UHGV virus genome: UHGV-0824332
Reading direction: 5' to 3' (one strand)
Source: a virus
DNA: 38,403 bases
The notes below the pieces were generated by a model that was not told the DNA's origin, searched no databases, and saw only the letters and a list, made by a program, of their open reading frames with translations. This document shows, in pieces, positions 5,130 to 8,366 of this stretch; within the stretch, counting starts at the first letter, position 1; each line of letters opens with the position of its first letter. A program made the translations under genes and the position numbers.

Positions 5130-5233
5130 GTTAAATCTCCAGATAGTCGCAGCACCCGTTGCGCCGCATATCTGGTTATTCTATTACCCATAAAACCATA
5201 TATGGATAGAAAGACTGTGAATATGAATAGATA

Positions 5234-5248
5234 TTACCTTTCAGGTAA
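5234..5248. promoter_or_regulatory. Operator site B, TTACC-TTTCA-GGTAA
   Basis: Perfect TTACC-N5-GGTAA palindrome in the divergent tailspike/ant intergenic region. Confidence 0.5.
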
Positions 5249-5285
5249 TTTGCAAAACGTGCTGGATAGCAAACAAATTATTTGC

Positions 5286-5305
5286 TACTGTATAAATATA
5301 CAGTT
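5286..5305. promoter_or_regulatory. LexA (SOS) box TACTGTATAAATATACAGTT overlapping the -10 region of the 5311 gene
   Basis: CTGT-N8-ACAG with AT-rich spacer, 18/20 match to the LexA consensus, ends 6 bp before the ATG at 5311. Confidence 0.6.
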
Positions 5306-5310
5306 ATTGC

Positions 5311-5583
5311 ATGGAGAAGATTAAGATGCAGCAGTATCACTATCCACTGGAAGACGGATTTACCGAAAGGATTCACACGCCGGGAGGCGTCAGGTCACTG
5401 GTGGAGGGATCGCACTTGATGAAATTACTCCGGGATCTCGATAAGGATGGATTTAATGTCGATGGCCCACTTGCCGAACTGACTGCACTGATTAACTACG
5501 TCACCAGCTCACAGATGTCTATGCAGGATCTGCAAACACATCTCGACTATTGTGCCGAACAATTACGAAAGCAAACCAGATAA
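5311..5583 (+). CDS. Small antirepressor-like protein (standalone Ant C-terminal-type domain)
   Basis: 90 aa; C-terminal region parallels the C-terminus of the 5897 antirepressor (LMKLLRDLDKDGFNVDGPLAELT...DLQTH versus LMNLLNQLQEDGHDVSGAAAELT...DIQTH). Confidence 0.6.
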   Translation: MEKIKMQQYHYPLEDGFTERIHTPGGVRSLVEGSHLMKLLRDLDKDGFNVDGPLAELTALINYVTSSQMSMQDLQTHLDYCAEQLRKQTR

Positions 5584-5614
5584 GGTTTGCAATTACCAAG
5601 TGGAGTGCTTATAT

Positions 5615-5629
5615 TTACCTTTGCGGTAA
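5615..5629. promoter_or_regulatory. Operator site B2, TTACC-TTTGC-GGTAA
   Basis: Perfect family palindrome between the two ant-like genes. Confidence 0.5.
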
Positions 5630-5664
5630 ATTTACATCGCACTCCTCTTGTGCCATAGTAATCA

Positions 5665-5742
5665 GGCACTGGCAAAATCCAGTGCCGGGATTGGTCTCCC
5701 GGATTACTACAGAGGCACATATGCCGCATAAGCGGTTTTTTT
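5665..5742 (+). terminator. Tandem hairpins ending in a U-tract terminator between the two ant-like genes
   Basis: Perfect stems GGCACTGG/CCAGTGCC (5665-5686) and CCGGGA/TCCCGG (5685-5702), then CCGC-ATAA-GCGG plus 7 T (5724-5742). Confidence 0.4.
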
Positions 5743-5896
5743 ATGTGTAAAGCGCACCTATTCTATGGTGGGCTGTGTGGGGGCACCGAAAGGTGCGCCG
5801 GGTTCCTTTGTAGCCGGTAAGACCAACTCTGCACAGTTCACCACCATCTGATTGGTCTCAGCGGTGGTGATTAACCTAACTACAAAGGTGATCGCC

Positions 5897-6589
5897 ATGA
5901 ATACCAAACCTTCCATCTTTTCCTTTGAGTCATCCTGCCAGATCCGTATGTTCATGATTGACGGAGAACCTTGGTTTGTCACCAAAGATGTGTGCAATGC
6001 TTTGAATATTGATGTTACACAAGCGAGAAAACTTGATAAAAAAGGCTGGAACAAAAAGGGGCTGTATTCAATACAGACCCCTGGTGGAATACAAGAACTA
6101 TCCATCGTTTCAGAATCAGGTCTCTACATCCTTATTCTGCGTTGCAAAGAGGCAATGACAGAGGGAACGAGAGCATTCAGATTTCTTGAATGGGTTACAG
6201 GTGAGGTTCTTCCTCAGATCCGCCGCACCGGAAGTTACATTAAAAACTCGCTCCCGCAGGAAGAACGCATAAAGATGGTTGCCGACCAGGTAGCCAACGC
6301 CACGGCGTCAGCAGTAATGCAGGCGATGAAGATAGAGAACAAAACCTACAGTGCCCCACTGAAGCCCGGCTACCGTAGCCTGATTCATTCGCCGTCTGGT
6401 GTTCTCGGCCTGACGGAGAACTCACTGCTGATGAATTTGCTGAACCAGTTACAGGAAGACGGGCATGACGTATCGGGCGCGGCGGCGGAACTGACCACCA
6501 TGTTCTGCTACATCGTTGGTGTGAGCAAATGCCTGCGTGATATCCAGACTCACGCGGAGTACATCAACGACAAAGCAGGATTCTTCTGA
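5897..6589 (+). CDS. Antirepressor with N-terminal BRO-N/KilA-N-like domain and Ant C-terminal domain
   Basis: ATG at 5897 preceded by AAGGTG; N-terminal FMIDGEPWFVTKDVCNALNI is BRO-N-like; C-terminal domain shared with the 5311 protein. Confidence 0.8.
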   Translation: MNTKPSIFSFESSCQIRMFMIDGEPWFVTKDVCNALNIDVTQARKLDKKGWNKKGLYSIQTPGGIQELSIVSESGLYILILRCKEAMTEGTRAFRFLEWVTGEVLPQIRRTGSYIKNSLPQEERIKMVADQVANATASAVMQAMKIENKTYSAPLKPGYRSLIHSPSGVLGLTENSLLMNLLNQLQEDGHDVSGAAAELTTMFCYIVGVSKCLRDIQTHAEYINDKAGFF

Positions 6590-6661
6590 CTAGCGGCGGC
6601 ACAGGGATGTGCCTTTAAATAATTCTGTACAGATTGCAGACTGGGGGTGAATAGAGTACTA

Positions 6662-6676
6662 TTACCCCAAAGGTAA
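6662..6676. promoter_or_regulatory. Operator site L, TTACC-CCAAA-GGTAA, upstream of the membrane-protein pair
   Basis: Perfect family palindrome 27 bp upstream of the ATG at 6703. Confidence 0.5.
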
Positions 6677-6702
6677 ACCGAGAGTTTACATGAGGGGGAA
6701 AC

Positions 6703-6891
6703 ATGGAAATCAACATCATTACATTGCTGAAGGCCATTATTGGCGGAGCGGGCTTAGGCTTTGCCCTACCAGGCGGATTATCTTTCCTGCTTCCTGCTTT
6801 TACTGTTACAGCTGGGATAGCCTATGCATTTGCTGTGGCTGGTGCTGTTGCACTCCCTGCTATCTATGCCGCAAAGAAGTTAGCCAACTAA
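6703..6891 (+). CDS. Small Gly/Ala-rich two-TM membrane peptide (62 aa), function unknown
   Basis: RBS GAGGGGG then ATG; two hydrophobic helices with GxxxG/AxxxA-like motifs and C-terminal KKLAN. Confidence 0.55.
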   Translation: MEINIITLLKAIIGGAGLGFALPGGLSFLLPAFTVTAGIAYAFAVAGAVALPAIYAAKKLAN

Positions 6892-6892
6892 A

Positions 6893-7225
6893 ATGCCTGA
6901 TTTATCTTGGCTTGCGCCCAGAGATGCACAGCAATTGACAAGGTTTTATTTCATACTGTGCATTGCTTATCTTGCTGTTCATCTGATATGGGATGCCGTT
7001 TGCAAAGATACGCCTCCTTTTTCTTTGGATAAGTTGCAATACAAGATGAATGAGGTTTATTCATCATCTACTTTTGCAACCAGCGCATTCTTCATTGTTA
7101 TTCTGTTCGATATGAAGAATCCACTGAGAACTTCAGATGCTTTCATATTCCCATTAATTATTGCTGCTCTAACTGGCTTTATGATCTCATTATCAGCAAT
7201 AGTGCCAAAGAAAGTAAATAACTGA
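6893..7225 (+). CDS. Membrane protein (110 aa, about 3 TM), function unknown, translationally adjacent to 6703 gene
   Basis: ATG 1 nt after the upstream stop; hydrophobic segments; followed by a strong terminator. Confidence 0.55.
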   Translation: MPDLSWLAPRDAQQLTRFYFILCIAYLAVHLIWDAVCKDTPPFSLDKLQYKMNEVYSSSTFATSAFFIVILFDMKNPLRTSDAFIFPLIIAALTGFMISLSAIVPKKVNN

Positions 7226-7228
7226 ATA

Positions 7229-7251
7229 AGCCCGCGTTGCGGGCTTTTTTA
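7229..7251 (+). terminator. Rho-independent terminator of the membrane-protein operon
   Basis: AGCCCGC-GTT-GCGGGCT followed by TTTTTT. Confidence 0.65.
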
Positions 7252-7281
7252 TGGACGAAACAAAAGTCAGTGCTACACTCA

Positions 7282-7309
7282 TTGACGCCACATTGAGGTG
7301 GCTTATAGA
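7282..7309 (+). promoter_or_regulatory. Sigma70-like promoter (-35 TTGACG, 16 bp spacer, -10 TATAGA) for the small secreted peptide gene
   Basis: Hexamers read directly in sequence upstream of the ATG at 7323. Confidence 0.4.
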
Positions 7310-7322
7310 TGGAAATGTCACA

Positions 7323-7484
7323 ATGAAAAAAGCATTTGCTGCACTGTTCGTTTTGTTGTCTCTGGTAGCTTCAACTCAGGCCTTTGCCGGTCGTTGTCAG
7401 CACGACAGCGATACTGCCGCTGACGGCTCCCGCTGCGGTGGGCGTTCTGCGGATTCCCGCCCGGGCGGCGGTGGCATTCGTTAA
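7323..7484 (+). CDS. Small secreted peptide precursor (53 aa; signal peptide plus about 31-aa Cys/Gly-rich mature part)
   Basis: MKKAFAALFVLLSLVASTQAFA signal-like N-terminus, then GRCQHDSDTAADGSRCGGRSADSRPGGGGIR; own promoter; GC-rich unlike neighbours. Confidence 0.4.
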   Translation: MKKAFAALFVLLSLVASTQAFAGRCQHDSDTAADGSRCGGRSADSRPGGGGIR

Positions 7485-7490
7485 AAACAA

Positions 7491-7506
7491 GGCCGCTAAA
7501 GCGGCC
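7491..7506. terminator. Bidirectional hairpin terminator between convergent genes
   Basis: GGCCGC-TAAA-GCGGCC; U-rich flank on the minus strand (TGTTTTTAA) terminates the 7514..8365 gene. Confidence 0.5.
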
Positions 7507-7513
7507 TGTTTGA

Positions 7514-8365
7514 TCACTGTGCAGTTTTCGCTGATCGATTTTCAGCTCTAAATTCAAGAACCGTTTCAATATTTCTTTCCTTCAGCATATCAATAACATT
7601 TTTATTCATTTGACTATCACTGGTTAATAACTGGTAAACGTCGCTTCTCTCTTTATCAGAGTTTTCTTTAACAGCTGCTTTGCATGCCAAATGCTTATTG
7701 AAATTTTCTACATCGCTAGTACAGGAATTTACGGCTGCTGATGAAATATCAGACGCTGAAGAAACACCATCATCCAAACGTTTTATAGCATTTTCTATAC
7801 ATGAGTTAAGGGAATAAACGACAACTGAGCGATACCCTTCAGACGCACACCATTCTAAATTTCTTGAAGGATCGAGTGGTTTTACTTCGCTGGATTGAAT
7901 TAACTTGTCAAAAACTGACTTATATTCAATCTGTTTTTTATCTATAGCCCATACTTCAGTAGCTGATTTATAATTCCCCGTATGCCTATTAACATCAAAT
8001 CCATGTTTTATAAGCAAATCTGCCCATGAAAGATTTATTGATTCATTGTTATGAGGCCATTTTCCTGTCAGAACCGCCCCCATAGACCCCATATATCCGC
8101 CATATGATGGTATAGCACCATGGCTCAGTAACTTCTCAGCAACCACAGGGCAATTAATTACATAAGAGGCGTAAAGCCCATTCCATAAAGCCCCTCTATA
8201 GTAATCGCCACGATTAGGTTCTTTTAAGTCGATAGCCTTTGATAATTGTTCACACGTTTTGCATGCATCAAAGTTATCCTTATTGCATTGCAATGAACTG
8301 GCAGCTGTAGGATTTACAGAGACTATTGAAAGCACTATGCCAAAAAACAAATTTATTTTTTTCAT
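7514..8365 (-). CDS. Secreted protein with ankyrin-like repeats, function unknown (late-operon moron)
   Basis: 283 aa; signal peptide MKKINLFFGIVLSIVSVNPTAA; repeats resembling ankyrin (AEKLLSHGAIP, ADLLIKHGFDVN); AT-rich; start 1 nt after the stop of the upstream virion gene. Confidence 0.6.
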   Translation of the reverse strand: MKKINLFFGIVLSIVSVNPTAASSLQCNKDNFDACKTCEQLSKAIDLKEPNRGDYYRGALWNGLYASYVINCPVVAEKLLSHGAIPSYGGYMGSMGAVLTGKWPHNNESINLSWADLLIKHGFDVNRHTGNYKSATEVWAIDKKQIEYKSVFDKLIQSSEVKPLDPSRNLEWCASEGYRSVVVYSLNSCIENAIKRLDDGVSSASDISSAAVNSCTSDVENFNKHLACKAAVKENSDKERSDVYQLLTSDSQMNKNVIDMLKERNIETVLEFRAENRSAKTAQ

Positions 8366-8366
8366 C

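What the first reader, a model, noticed from the sequence alone, without database searches (positions are those of the whole stretch)
5130..8366. Low-GC moron island between tailspike and virion core genes: candidate undescribed exclusion/defence module
This roughly 3.2 kb block interrupts the otherwise colinear late operon and is transcribed partly against it. It holds a LexA-boxed small antirepressor-like gene, a BRO-N antirepressor, an operator-preceded pair of small membrane proteins (62 aa two-TM peptide plus 110 aa three-TM protein) ending in a strong terminator, a separately promoted secreted mini-peptide, and a secreted ankyrin-like protein. The position is analogous to the P22 immI/sieA region, where superinfection-exclusion and antirepressor genes sit next to the tailspike. 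None of the three small membrane or secreted products matches a family I can name.
Basis: partly seen in the sequence, partly recalled or inferred. Interest (0 to 1): 0.75.

Follow-up and report, generated by a model that had tools for sequence, protein, structure and literature searches.

The report
Phage induction switch plus swappable cargo
It also holds three swappable cargo slots, one with a conserved but uncharacterised pair of small membrane proteins whose role in defence is possible but unproven.

Summary
The ORFs, LexA box, operator and terminators are all present at the stated coordinates. The block is not one moron island.

**Known switch, 5234-6589.** This is the phage's secondary-immunity switch.
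- Gene A (85 aa) is the ortholog of the solved SPC32H antirepressor Ant (PDB 5D50_E, E=4e-47) and has a conserved LexA box.
- Downstream lie a repressor-operator promoter, an isrK-like RNA and a C4 antisense RNA. Both RNAs score above the Rfam gathering thresholds.
- A C4 loop pairs with the ribosome-binding site of the BRO-N antirepressor B.

**The "operator".** TTACC-N5-GGTAA occurs 15 times in the window against 0.5 expected. It marks promoter regions genome-wide and flanks the repressor gene.

**Cargo.** Related DNA occurs in 569 of 5426 E. coli genomes, with mosaic content.
- The slot after B shares one promoter-operator. It carries C-D here (19 genomes), a YafO-like toxin pair, a DUF4760 protein or others elsewhere.
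- C (two TM segments) and D (three TM segments) are under strong purifying selection.
- C-D recurs as a pair across Proteobacteria, next to integrases and toxin-antitoxin genes.
- C and D match no known family, defence system or fold.
- E is a conserved secreted mini-peptide. F ends the late operon.

**Verdict.** The hotspot and the immI analogy are supported. A defence or exclusion role for C-D is untested, and its operator predicts expression on derepression, not in the lysogen.

The parts
5234..5248 (.). Operator O1, TTACCTTTCAGGTAA, between the tailspike gene and gene A. A palindromic TTGCAA hexamer lies next to it at 5250-5255.
   Evidence: Perfect match to the genome-wide palindrome. The position is conserved in relatives while the central 5 nt vary. 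On the - strand it would lie between a -35 and a -10 for the tailspike operon; that placement is my inference.
5288..5303 (.). LexA (SOS) box overlapping the likely -10 (TATAAA, 5291-5296) of gene A.
   Evidence: CTGT-N8-ACAG occurs 3 times in the window against 0.45 expected. It is conserved upstream of A in L001, L002, L003, L005, L006, L007 and L017.
5326..5583 (+). Gene A: small antirepressor Ant (85 aa), ortholog of SPC32H Ant.
   Evidence: PDB 5D50 chain E 'Anti-repressor protein', E=4.1e-47 over residues 2-84. phrog_450, 9e-48. 42% identical to residues 149-222 of B.
5587..5629 (+). Promoter-like site TTGCAA-17-TATATT (5587-5615) overlapped by operator O2, TTACCTTTGCGGTAA (5615-5629).
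   Evidence: Promoter scan, operator search, conservation in relatives.
5666..5742 (+). isrK-like Hfq-binding small RNA / a1-b1 leader, with its own terminator (5723-5736 plus a T run).
   Evidence: Rfam RF01394, 74.7 bits against a gathering score of 50. RF03163 c4-a1b1 at 5653-5705 scores 38.4 bits, below its gathering score of 46.7. Terminator.
5761..5848 (+). C4 antisense RNA.
   Evidence: Rfam RF01695, 78.6 bits against a gathering score of 45, full-length model match.
5852..5888 (+). C4 target sites in the leader of B: TTGGTCT (5852-5858) and CTACAAAGG (5880-5888). The second covers the Shine-Dalgarno region, 9-17 nt before the ATG.
   Evidence: Exact complementarity to C4 positions 5820-5826 and to the C4 loop at 5805-5813. 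A 9-mer match is expected about 0.02 times by chance (my calculation).
5897..6589 (+). Gene B: BRO-N antirepressor (230 aa) with an Ant-like C-terminal domain.
   Evidence: Pfam Bro-N 1.8e-13. phrog_130 'anti-repressor Ant' 3.5e-51. C-terminal residues 149-225 match 5D50_E at 9e-14. 81% identical to vB_EcoP_ZX5 ORF4, whose overexpression cut lysogeny about 1000-fold.
6634..6676 (+). Cargo-slot promoter (TTGCAG-17-TACTAT, my reading) overlapped by operator O3, TTACCCCAAAGGTAA (6662-6676).
   Evidence: Operator. Window 6593-6679 is present in 328 E. coli genomes whatever cargo follows.
6703..6891 (+). Gene C: 62-aa protein with two hydrophobic segments rich in Gly and Ala (phrog_13406, function unknown).
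   Evidence: dN/dS about 0.04 against the Klebsiella copy.
6893..7225 (+). Gene D: 110-aa protein with three hydrophobic segments. It starts 1 nt after C's stop codon (phrog_36716, function unknown).
   Evidence: The profile search found 83 clusters. The structure model is three long helices, pLDDT 77.
7228..7253 (+). Intrinsic terminator ending the C-D unit.
   Evidence: 8-bp stem with 6 G-C pairs, followed by a T run.
7323..7484 (+). Gene E: 53-aa precursor of a secreted peptide of about 31 aa with two Cys (phrog_14503).
   Evidence: The possible promoter TTGACG-16-TATAGA at 7282-7309 has no operator (my reading).
7490..7507 (.). G+C-rich hairpin between E and F. It was reported as a terminator on the - strand only; its position makes it a candidate end for both the late operon and E.
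   Evidence: - strand terminator AGGCCGCTTTAGCGGCCT plus a T run. Any + strand function is my inference.
7514..8365 (-). Gene F: 283-aa exported protein with 8 invariant Cys; the last gene of the late operon.
   Evidence: Its start codon lies 1 nt after the stop of the 1129-aa gene. phrog_6118. 22 homolog clusters; every homolog locus examined (Morganella, Serratia rubidaea) has it directly after the 1129/1131-aa virion gene. Weak ankyrin-like fold.

Best explanation
The block has two parts.

**(1) 5234-6589 is the phage's secondary-immunity and induction switch.**
- The main repressor (32922-33506) has two HTH domains and no autocleavage domain.
- DNA damage removes LexA from the box at 5288-5303, and the small antirepressor A (Ant) is made.
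- By analogy with the solved SPC32H Rep-Ant complex, A pulls the repressor off its TTACC-N5-GGTAA operators.
- One of those operators covers the promoter at 5587-5615. That promoter drives an isrK-like RNA, a C4 antisense RNA and the BRO-N antirepressor B.
- C4 pairs with B's ribosome-binding site. B therefore stays silent unless transcription outruns C4, as with c4/ant in P1 immI.

**(2) 6590-8366 holds accessory cargo.**
- A conserved promoter-operator (6634-6676) drives whatever two-gene cassette sits behind it, here C-D.
- C-D is predicted to be repressed, perhaps leakily because the operator is single, in the lysogen. It should switch on at induction or fresh infection.
- My preferred reading is that C oligomerises in the inner membrane through its small-residue zippers into a membrane-perturbing effector, and that D is its tightly co-translated partner or antidote. 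The pair would then act in competition between phages or mobile elements, as exclusion or abortive infection during lytic growth, or as toxin-antidote-like addiction.
- E is a small secreted peptide with a possible promoter of its own.
- F is an exported protein made together with the virion genes.

**Shown:** gene content, RNA family membership, C4-target pairing, orthology to Ant and Rep, operator statistics, hotspot mosaicism, purifying selection on C and D, and conservation of the pair.
**Inferred:** that the repressor binds the palindrome, all promoter assignments, all expression timing, and every functional statement about C, D, E and F.

**Confidence.** The figure of 0.7 applies to the composite architecture (known switch plus cargo slots). 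The specific effector/partner reading of C-D has about 0.3.
For: **Switch**
- A matches 5D50_E at 4e-47. The repressor matches 5D50_A at 3.5e-42 and has no peptidase domain.
- The LexA box is present and conserved in relatives.
- C4 and isrK score above the Rfam gathering thresholds.
- A C4 loop is complementary to B's Shine-Dalgarno region.
- B carries Bro-N plus an Ant-like C-terminal domain. Its ZX5 ortholog lowers lysogeny.

**Operator**
- 15 sites against 0.52 expected in the window, and 14 against 0.65 at syntenic positions in phiV10.
- The sites flank the repressor gene on both sides.
- The half-sites are conserved while the spacer varies.

**Cargo**
- The same promoter-operator precedes different cassettes.
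- C-D is full-length in only 19 of 5426 genomes.
- The pair is conserved in Klebsiella prophages and in non-phage sites next to the guaA att core, integrases, HipBA or HigB.
- dN/dS is about 0.04-0.1.
- The same slot elsewhere holds a YafO-family toxin pair.
Against: - No experiment or homology links C-D to any function. Pfam, NCBIfam, PADLOC, PDB sequence and BFVD fold searches all found nothing significant.
- Repressor binding to the palindrome is inferred from its distribution only.
- Single operators may repress poorly, so expression in the lysogen cannot be excluded.
- The pair is retained in Providencia and Serratia chromosomes without a phage. That fits a host-beneficial or neutral membrane role as well as it fits addiction.
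- The promoters of C-D and E are my readings. The consensus scan did not report them.
Confidence: 0.7

Rival explanations
1. C-D, with E and F, is a lysogen-expressed superinfection-exclusion or defence module like P22 sieA/sieB. It would be made constitutively from the prophage and block DNA entry or growth of incoming phages.
For: - It sits next to the tailspike in an immI-like region.
- It is a variable hotspot.
- The products are small membrane proteins, and known exclusion proteins such as T4 Imm are small membrane proteins (general knowledge).
- The single operator could be leaky.
- E has no operator.
Against: - The C-D promoter is overlapped by the same palindrome that marks the early and late promoter regions. 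This predicts repression in the lysogen.
- There is no match to PHROGs annotated as exclusion proteins or to PADLOC models.
- The pair also persists at non-phage chromosomal sites.
Confidence: 0.15
2. C-D is an accessory lysis-timing pair of the holin/antiholin type. It would tune membrane permeabilisation late in infection.
For: - C has two hydrophobic segments and is the size of class II holins.
- The two genes are tightly coupled, and expression is predicted to follow derepression.
Against: - The phage already has a complete lysis cassette: Phage_holin_8 at 1869-2285, plus ORFs of the same lengths as the phiV10 holin, endolysin and spanin genes in the syntenic positions.
- There is no holin Pfam or PHROG match.
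- C lacks the charged C-terminal tail typical of holins.
- The pair is conserved at chromosomal sites without lysis genes.
- Most related phages lack it.
Confidence: 0.1
3. C is a bacteriocin-like hydrophobic peptide and D its membrane immunity protein. The peptide would be made on induction and released by phage lysis.
For: - C is rich in Gly and Ala.
- Its first 15 residues end in GG in the enterobacterial and Providencia copies.
- D, at about 110 aa with three TM segments, resembles microcin immunity proteins in size and topology (my recollection, not tested).
- Induction-coupled expression would parallel SOS-controlled colicins.
Against: - There is no Pfam hit to the double-glycine bacteriocin family or any other family.
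- No peptidase-containing ABC exporter gene was noticed in the window. This was not searched for systematically; one search lists ORFs without functions.
- The marine homolog L029 lacks the GG at that position.
- Both hydrophobic segments of C look like ordinary membrane helices.
Confidence: 0.05
4. C-D has nothing to do with conflict between phages. It would be a small membrane complex with a physiological role, such as envelope stress, transport or membrane homeostasis, that mobile elements happen to carry.
For: - The D family has 83 clusters across gamma- and alphaproteobacteria, including what looks like genus-wide presence in Providencia.
- Selection is strongly purifying.
- No defence-system signature was found.
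Against: - It recurs at integration junctions and beside HipBA, HigB and integrase genes.
- In E. coli phages it is interchangeable with a YafO-like toxin cassette behind the same promoter.
- Its distribution in E. coli is patchy, 19 of 5426 genomes.
Confidence: 0.25

Closest known systems
SPC32H Rep-Ant antirepression system (epsilon15-like Salmonella podovirus; PDB 5D50; Kim & Ryu 2013 J Virol 87:11775; Kim et al. 2016 PNAS)
   Same: - A is about 89% identical to Ant over 83 residues.
- The window's repressor aligns end to end with Rep.
- The repressor has no cleavage domain.
- A LexA box overlaps the ant promoter. LexA control of ant in SPC32H is from my memory of the 2013 paper, which is listed in the references seen.
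   Different: Nothing essential; this is a new member. The window also carries a second, longer antirepressor (B) with an Ant-like C-terminal domain. I did not check whether SPC32H has one.
Phage P1/P7 immI operon (C1-controlled promoter, c4 antisense RNA, icd, ant1/2)
   Same: - A repressor-operator promoter is followed by a1/b1-like targets, a C4 RNA (RF01695, 78.6 bits), a2/b2-like targets covering the next gene's ribosome-binding site, and then an antirepressor gene.
- In P1, c4 RNA represses Ant synthesis (PMC8546580).
   Different: - There is no icd-like ORF between C4 and the antirepressor.
- The antirepressor is a BRO-N protein, not P1 Ant1/2.
- The operator sequence and the repressor are unrelated to P1 C1.
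Gifsy-1 isrK-orf45-anrP locus (PMC4825925)
   Same: - An isrK-family RNA (RF01394, 74.7 bits) with its own terminator lies upstream of an antirepressor-like gene, so expression depends on read-through.
- blastn aligns window 5672-5875 (about 68% identity) to Gifsy-1.
   Different: - No orf45 equivalent was identified.
- The activating trans role of short IsrK and the link to an AntQ antiterminator were not examined and may not apply.
P22 immI/sieA region
   Same: - Antirepressor functions and accessory genes sit beside the tailspike gene.
- Relatives such as TL-2011b and UTME-3 carry Arc-like and Ant genes in the slot that F occupies here.
   Different: - This window has no Mnt/Arc control.
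- No sieA or sieB homolog was found.
- Control here is by LexA, the main repressor's operator and an antisense RNA.
Prophage accessory-gene (moron/defence) hotspots, such as the P2/P4 hotspots, and type II toxin-antitoxin cassettes
   Same: - The flanks and promoter are fixed while the cassettes are interchangeable. One is a YafO-family toxin pair.
- Each cassette seen is one or two genes.
   Different: - None of the cassettes examined matches a PADLOC defence model.
- The slot's promoter carries the phage's own operator.
- C and D are both integral membrane proteins, unlike type II TA pairs.

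Membership tests
SPC32H-type Rep/Ant antirepression | Small Ant protein homologous to SPC32H Ant | tested here: met
   A against PDB 5D50_E: E=4.1e-47, residues 2-84 aligned.
SPC32H-type Rep/Ant antirepression | Cognate repressor homologous to Rep and lacking a RecA-dependent autocleavage domain | tested here: met
   Window 32922-33506 against 5D50_A: E=3.5e-42. Pfam finds only HTH domains and no Peptidase_S24.
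SPC32H-type Rep/Ant antirepression | LexA box at the ant promoter | tested here: met
   CTGTATAAATATACAG at 5288-5303, 23 nt before the start codon. It is conserved in seven relatives.
SPC32H-type Rep/Ant antirepression | Ant physically binds Rep and releases it from DNA | not testable with these tools
   This needs pull-down and gel-shift assays. It is inferred from about 89% identity to the crystallised pair.
P1-type immI (c4 antisense RNA control of an antirepressor) | C4 RNA matching the Rfam model above its gathering score | tested here: met
   RF01695 at 5761-5848: 78.6 bits against 45, full-length.
P1-type immI (c4 antisense RNA control of an antirepressor) | Downstream target sites complementary to C4 that cover the ribosome-binding site of the next gene | tested here: met
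   CTACAAAGG (5880-5888) pairs with the C4 loop at 5805-5813. TTGGTCT (5852-5858) pairs with 5820-5826.
P1-type immI (c4 antisense RNA control of an antirepressor) | Upstream a1/b1 target element | tested here: inconclusive
   RF03163 scores 38.4 bits, below its gathering score of 46.7. TTGGTCT does recur at 5691-5697, and the overlapping isrK model passes.
P1-type immI (c4 antisense RNA control of an antirepressor) | icd-like ORF between c4 and ant | tested here: not met
   Only 48 nt separate C4 (ends 5848) from B's ATG (5897), and there is no ORF in that gap. The window therefore works like immI but is not an exact copy of the P1 operon.
BRO-N antirepressors | Bro-N domain above Pfam's gathering score | tested here: met
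   PF02498, 51.4 bits against 25.6.
Phage holins / lysis proteins (for C and D) | Match to a holin, antiholin or spanin family | tested here: not met
   No Pfam family at E<=1. The PHROG matches are to families of unknown function.
Known anti-phage defence systems (for C, D, E and F) | Match to a PADLOC-DB model | tested here: not met
   Zero families at E<=0.1 for all six proteins. The alternative cargo genes from relatives also gave none.
Superinfection-exclusion proteins (P22 SieA/SieB type) | Homology to a characterised exclusion protein | tested here: not met
   The PHROG scan returned only unknown-function families for C and D.
Superinfection-exclusion proteins (P22 SieA/SieB type) | Expressed in the lysogen and reduces plating of incoming phages | not testable with these tools
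   The operator over the promoter argues against expression in the lysogen. Only RNA-seq and plating assays can decide.
Ankyrin-repeat proteins (for F) | Ank repeat detectable by sequence profile | tested here: not met
   No Pfam family at E<=1.
Ankyrin-repeat proteins (for F) | Ankyrin-like stacked helix-turn-helix fold | tested here: inconclusive
Class II microcin plus immunity protein (for C-D) | Double-glycine leader family match and a dedicated exporter nearby | tested here: not met
   No Pfam hit. No exporter gene was noticed in the window, though this was not searched systematically. The GG at residues 14-15 is not conserved in the marine homolog L029.

The most novel reading that the evidence does not exclude
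C-D is the founding example of an undescribed two-component membrane system: a small-residue-zipper, two-TM effector plus a three-TM partner. Mobile elements across Proteobacteria would carry it, and it would kill or depolarise the cell, or block DNA entry, during conflict between phages. In this phage it is wired to the repressor's operator, so it would fire only once the prophage is derepressed or on fresh infection. In effect it would be a lytic-phase exclusion or abortive-infection device.
Probability: 0.2. Interest if true: 0.7.

Novelty: new member of a known kind. Interest (0 to 1): 0.35.

Why it matters
**Annotation**
- The region between the tailspike and the virion core genes of Uetakevirus-type prophages is present in about 10% of complete E. 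coli genomes. It can now be labelled.
- Its parts are a LexA-controlled Ant, an isrK/C4 RNA unit that the phiV10 record leaves unannotated and the ZX5 record labels as an 'ash family protein' CDS, a BRO-N antirepressor, and three cargo slots.
- This prevents the core induction switch from being mistaken for morons.

**Discovery**
- One conserved promoter-operator serves interchangeable cassettes: C-D, YafO-like pairs, DUF4760 and others. This gives a defined, easily cloned hotspot for mining accessory functions.
- C-D is a strongly conserved, widely distributed membrane pair of unknown function and a reasonable candidate for such a screen.
- If the cargo really is under repressor control, phage-carried toxin-like modules would be deployed in the lytic phase rather than the lysogenic phase.

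Tried and rejected
**Searches that found nothing useful**
- Pfam, NCBIfam and PADLOC scans gave nothing for C, D, E or F. The same held for the alternative cargo genes of relatives, apart from a weak YafO hit.
- tblastn of C and D against the phage collection found no match.
- PDB profile searches with C, D and F gave only chance-level hits.
- Foldseek of the D model against viral structures gave no hit below E=2.7.
- The AFDB library was not available.
- Searches for the RefSeq accessions or PHROG ids of C, D and E, and for DUF4760, found nothing useful in the literature.
- The SPC32H and epsilon15 papers are not held in the library. What I say about them rests on my memory, on the PDB molecule names, and on the summary in PMC9638917.

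**Ideas rejected**
- That the palindrome before C-D is a private operator of that cassette. It is genome-wide.
- That the Serratia copy of C-D shows a truly phage-independent origin. It lies about 55 bp from the guaA att core used by this phage group, so it may be a prophage remnant.
- That the whole island is low in GC.

**Not possible**
- A covariation test of operator against repressor type. Every relative examined has the same half-sites.

Full report
**Setting.** The window is a nearly complete epsilon15/phiV10-like (Uetakevirus) phage genome, read in the opposite orientation to the phiV10 record. The finding lies between the tailspike gene (2814-5129, -) and a 1129-aa virion protein gene (8367-11756, -). 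The closest phage records cover only part of the block. EC.W1-9 covers 80%, TL-2011b 47% and phiV10 36%.

- Six ORFs are present: A 5326-5583, B 5897-6589, C 6703-6891, D 6893-7225 and E 7323-7484 on the + strand, and F 7514-8365 on the - strand.
- B has a Bro-N domain above Pfam's threshold.
- C has two hydrophobic segments and D has three. E and F have signal-like N-termini.
- A LexA box, CTGTATAAATATACAG, sits at 5288-5303. It is conserved upstream of A in seven E. coli relatives, with changes confined to the spacer.
- A strong terminator follows D, and a second one, on the - strand, lies between E and F.
- 'Low GC' is only partly true. D is 0.375 and F 0.369, but A, B and C are at the genome mean of 0.48 and E is 0.58.
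- F starts one base after the stop codon of the 1129-aa gene. It is therefore the last gene of the late operon and not part of a counter-transcribed unit.

Rfam places two RNAs between A and B, both above their gathering scores.
- An isrK-family RNA lies at 5666-5742 (74.7 bits against 50) and a C4 antisense RNA at 5761-5848 (78.6 bits against 45).
- The C4 loop CCUUUGUAG (5805-5813) is exactly complementary to CUACAAAGG at 5880-5888. That site covers the Shine-Dalgarno region 9-17 nt before B's start codon.
- AGACCAA (5820-5826) pairs with TTGGTCT at both 5852-5858 and 5691-5697.
- This is the logic of the P1 immI operon, where c4 RNA represses synthesis of the antirepressor (PMC8546580). It also resembles the Gifsy-1 isrK-anrP locus (PMC4825925).
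- The unit is widespread. blastn finds it in 225 phage records, including Stx phages, Gifsy-1 and APSE-1.

**A and B are known functions.**
- A is about 89% identical to the antirepressor of Salmonella phage SPC32H, whose complex with its repressor is solved (PDB 5D50 chain E, E=4e-47).
- The window's repressor (32922-33506) aligns along its whole length with SPC32H Rep (5D50 chain A, E=3.5e-42). It has HTH domains but no autocleavage domain.
- As I recall Kim & Ryu 2013 (listed in the references seen), LexA controls ant in SPC32H. summarises how tetrameric Ant disassembles the Rep tetramer.
- The general scheme, a LexA-controlled small antirepressor lying outside the immunity region, is that of Lemire et al. 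2011.
- B's C-terminal domain is a paralog of A, 42% identical.
- B's ortholog in phage ZX5 is 81% identical overall and identical over the C-terminal 110 residues. Its overexpression lowered lysogeny about 1000-fold.
- The first 1.4 kb of the 'island' is therefore the phage's conserved induction switch, not cargo.

**The 'operator'.**
- The palindrome before C is not private to that gene. TTACC-N5-GGTAA occurs 9 times perfectly and 15 times with at most one mismatch in the window, against 0.52 expected.
- phiV10 has 14 such sites at syntenic positions, against 0.65 expected.
- The sites lie on both sides of the repressor gene (32804 and 32852; 33564 and 33626), before the cro-side genes, before the DUF1064 gene, at the terminase start, before the portal region, before int, and three times in the block: 5234, 5615 and 6662.
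- In relatives the half-sites are kept while the central five bases vary.
- I infer that this is the Rep operator. SPC32H Rep binds palindromic sites.
- At 5615 and 6662 the palindrome overlaps the end of a -10-like hexamer and the expected transcription start, which is the geometry of a repressor site.

**The cargo slots.**
- DNA related to the block occurs in 569 of 5426 complete E. coli genomes, but only 39 cover 80% or more of it.
- The roughly 87 nt after B (6593-6679: hairpin, promoter and operator) occur in 328 genomes. The C-D genes that follow are full-length in only 19.
- An alignment shows the same promoter-operator in front of different cassettes. These are C-D here and in FDAARGOS_1303, a small protein plus a YafO-family toxin in most others, a 69-aa plus 287-aa pair, a 211-aa protein in IAI39 and a DUF4760 protein.
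- A second slot, between A and the isrK promoter, is empty here. A third slot, occupied by F, is also variable and includes Arc/Ant genes in TL-2011b and UTME-3.
- None of the cassettes examined matches a PADLOC model.

**What C-D is.** Both are real genes.
- Against the Klebsiella copies, dN/dS is about 0.04 for C and pN/pS about 0.1 for D.
- D's start codon is one base after C's stop codon.
- By word-indexed search both families looked confined to Enterobacterales. An exhaustive profile search with D then found 83 clusters at 50% identity. Named members come from Providencia, Erwinia, Oceanospirillaceae, Tateyamaria and marine metagenomes.
- In every locus examined, a small C-like gene with two hydrophobic segments and the K-x-I-I-G-G-A-G...S-F..P..T-V-T motif lies directly upstream of D.
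- The contexts are mobile-element edges:
  - the same slot in K. pneumoniae epsilon15-like prophages, in thousands of assemblies;
  - a site about 55 bp from the guaA att core in Serratia fonticola, which is the att site this phage group uses;
  - near guaA with HipBA in Providencia;
  - beside an integrase or HigB in marine contigs.
- No family, solved structure or viral fold matches either protein. The D model is simply three long helices.

**Most likely mechanism.**
- For 5234-6589 I am confident. SOS induction leads to LexA release, then Ant (A), then Rep release from all operators. The isrK/C4-gated BRO-N antirepressor B acts as a second layer.
- For C-D I commit to a membrane-acting pair made on derepression. 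C would be an oligomerising effector and D its co-translated partner or antidote, used in competition between mobile elements. I give this about 0.3.
- The grounds are the operator geometry, the interchangeability with a toxin cassette, the tight coupling of the genes, the small-residue zippers in both helices of C, and the association with integrases and toxin-antitoxin genes.
- All of this is inference.

**E and F.**
- E is a 53-aa precursor whose mature 31-aa peptide has two Cys. It is conserved only in E. coli and Klebsiella phages of this group. It has no operator and has a plausible promoter of its own, so it is the best candidate here for a gene expressed in the lysogen.
- F has eight invariant Cys. 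Its homologs always follow the 1129-aa virion gene in Klebsiella, Serratia and Morganella prophages. Its resemblance to ankyrin repeats is weak.

**Verdict.** It is not right that this is a single undescribed defence module. Half of the block is an already characterised switch, and the defence or exclusion role of the rest is untested. The regulatory evidence points away from expression in the lysogen.

Noticed in passing
window 201, 2135, 5234, 5615, 6662, 23810, 26937, 26955, 30459, 30521, 32467, 32804, 32852, 33564, 33626: The palindrome TTACC-N5-GGTAA forms a genome-wide network of 15 sites against 0.5 expected. It marks nearly every promoter region, including those before int, the terminase and the tailspike. 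It recalls the dispersed C1 operators of P1. phiV10 has sites at the same positions.
   Followed up: partly
window 24147-24223 (+): A tRNA-Arg(TCT) gene lies on the strand opposite the late genes, near the terminase-portal region.
   Followed up: no
L004 (phiV10) 20238-20542; L017 (ZX5) 3150-3263: The public records do not annotate the isrK/C4 RNA unit. phiV10 labels it 'similar to hypothetical protein SF0880' and 'terminator'. ZX5 labels it as an 'ash family protein' CDS.
   Followed up: partly
L011 6001-6610; L018 3829-8192: In Serratia fonticola and Providencia the C-D pair sits close to guaA. In Serratia it lies about 55 bp from the sequence AATCATTCCCACTCAAT, the att core reported for phage ZX5. 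The pair may therefore be what survives of decayed prophages at this site.
   Followed up: partly
L011 5324-5620; L029 2700-2993: An ABM-domain (antibiotic biosynthesis monooxygenase) gene lies a few hundred bases upstream of the C-D-like pair in both Serratia and an unrelated marine contig. This may be coincidence or a conserved neighbour.
   Followed up: no
protein P0129: A 3161-aa protein matches positions 38-83 of the D profile in 13 separate stretches (E=1e-7). It may be a repeat protein or a compositional artefact.
   Followed up: no
L013 3837-4688; L005 4183-4911; L001 3477-4392: A further cargo slot lies between gene A and the isrK promoter. It is empty in this window. Relatives carry - strand genes there: a 283-aa DUF6236 protein in Klebsiella, a 242-aa protein, and a 168-aa plus 139-aa pair. 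None matches PADLOC.
   Followed up: partly
window 26937-26969: Two operator copies 18 bp apart lie inside the 5' end of the small-terminase ORF as delimited by its TTG start at 27015. phiV10 has the same arrangement inside its annotated terS. The true start codon may be further downstream.
   Followed up: no
window 2495-2848 (-): A 117-aa ORF overlaps the 3' end of the tailspike gene by 35 nt. It has no Pfam match and sits where relatives carry O-antigen-modifying or other genes.
   Followed up: no
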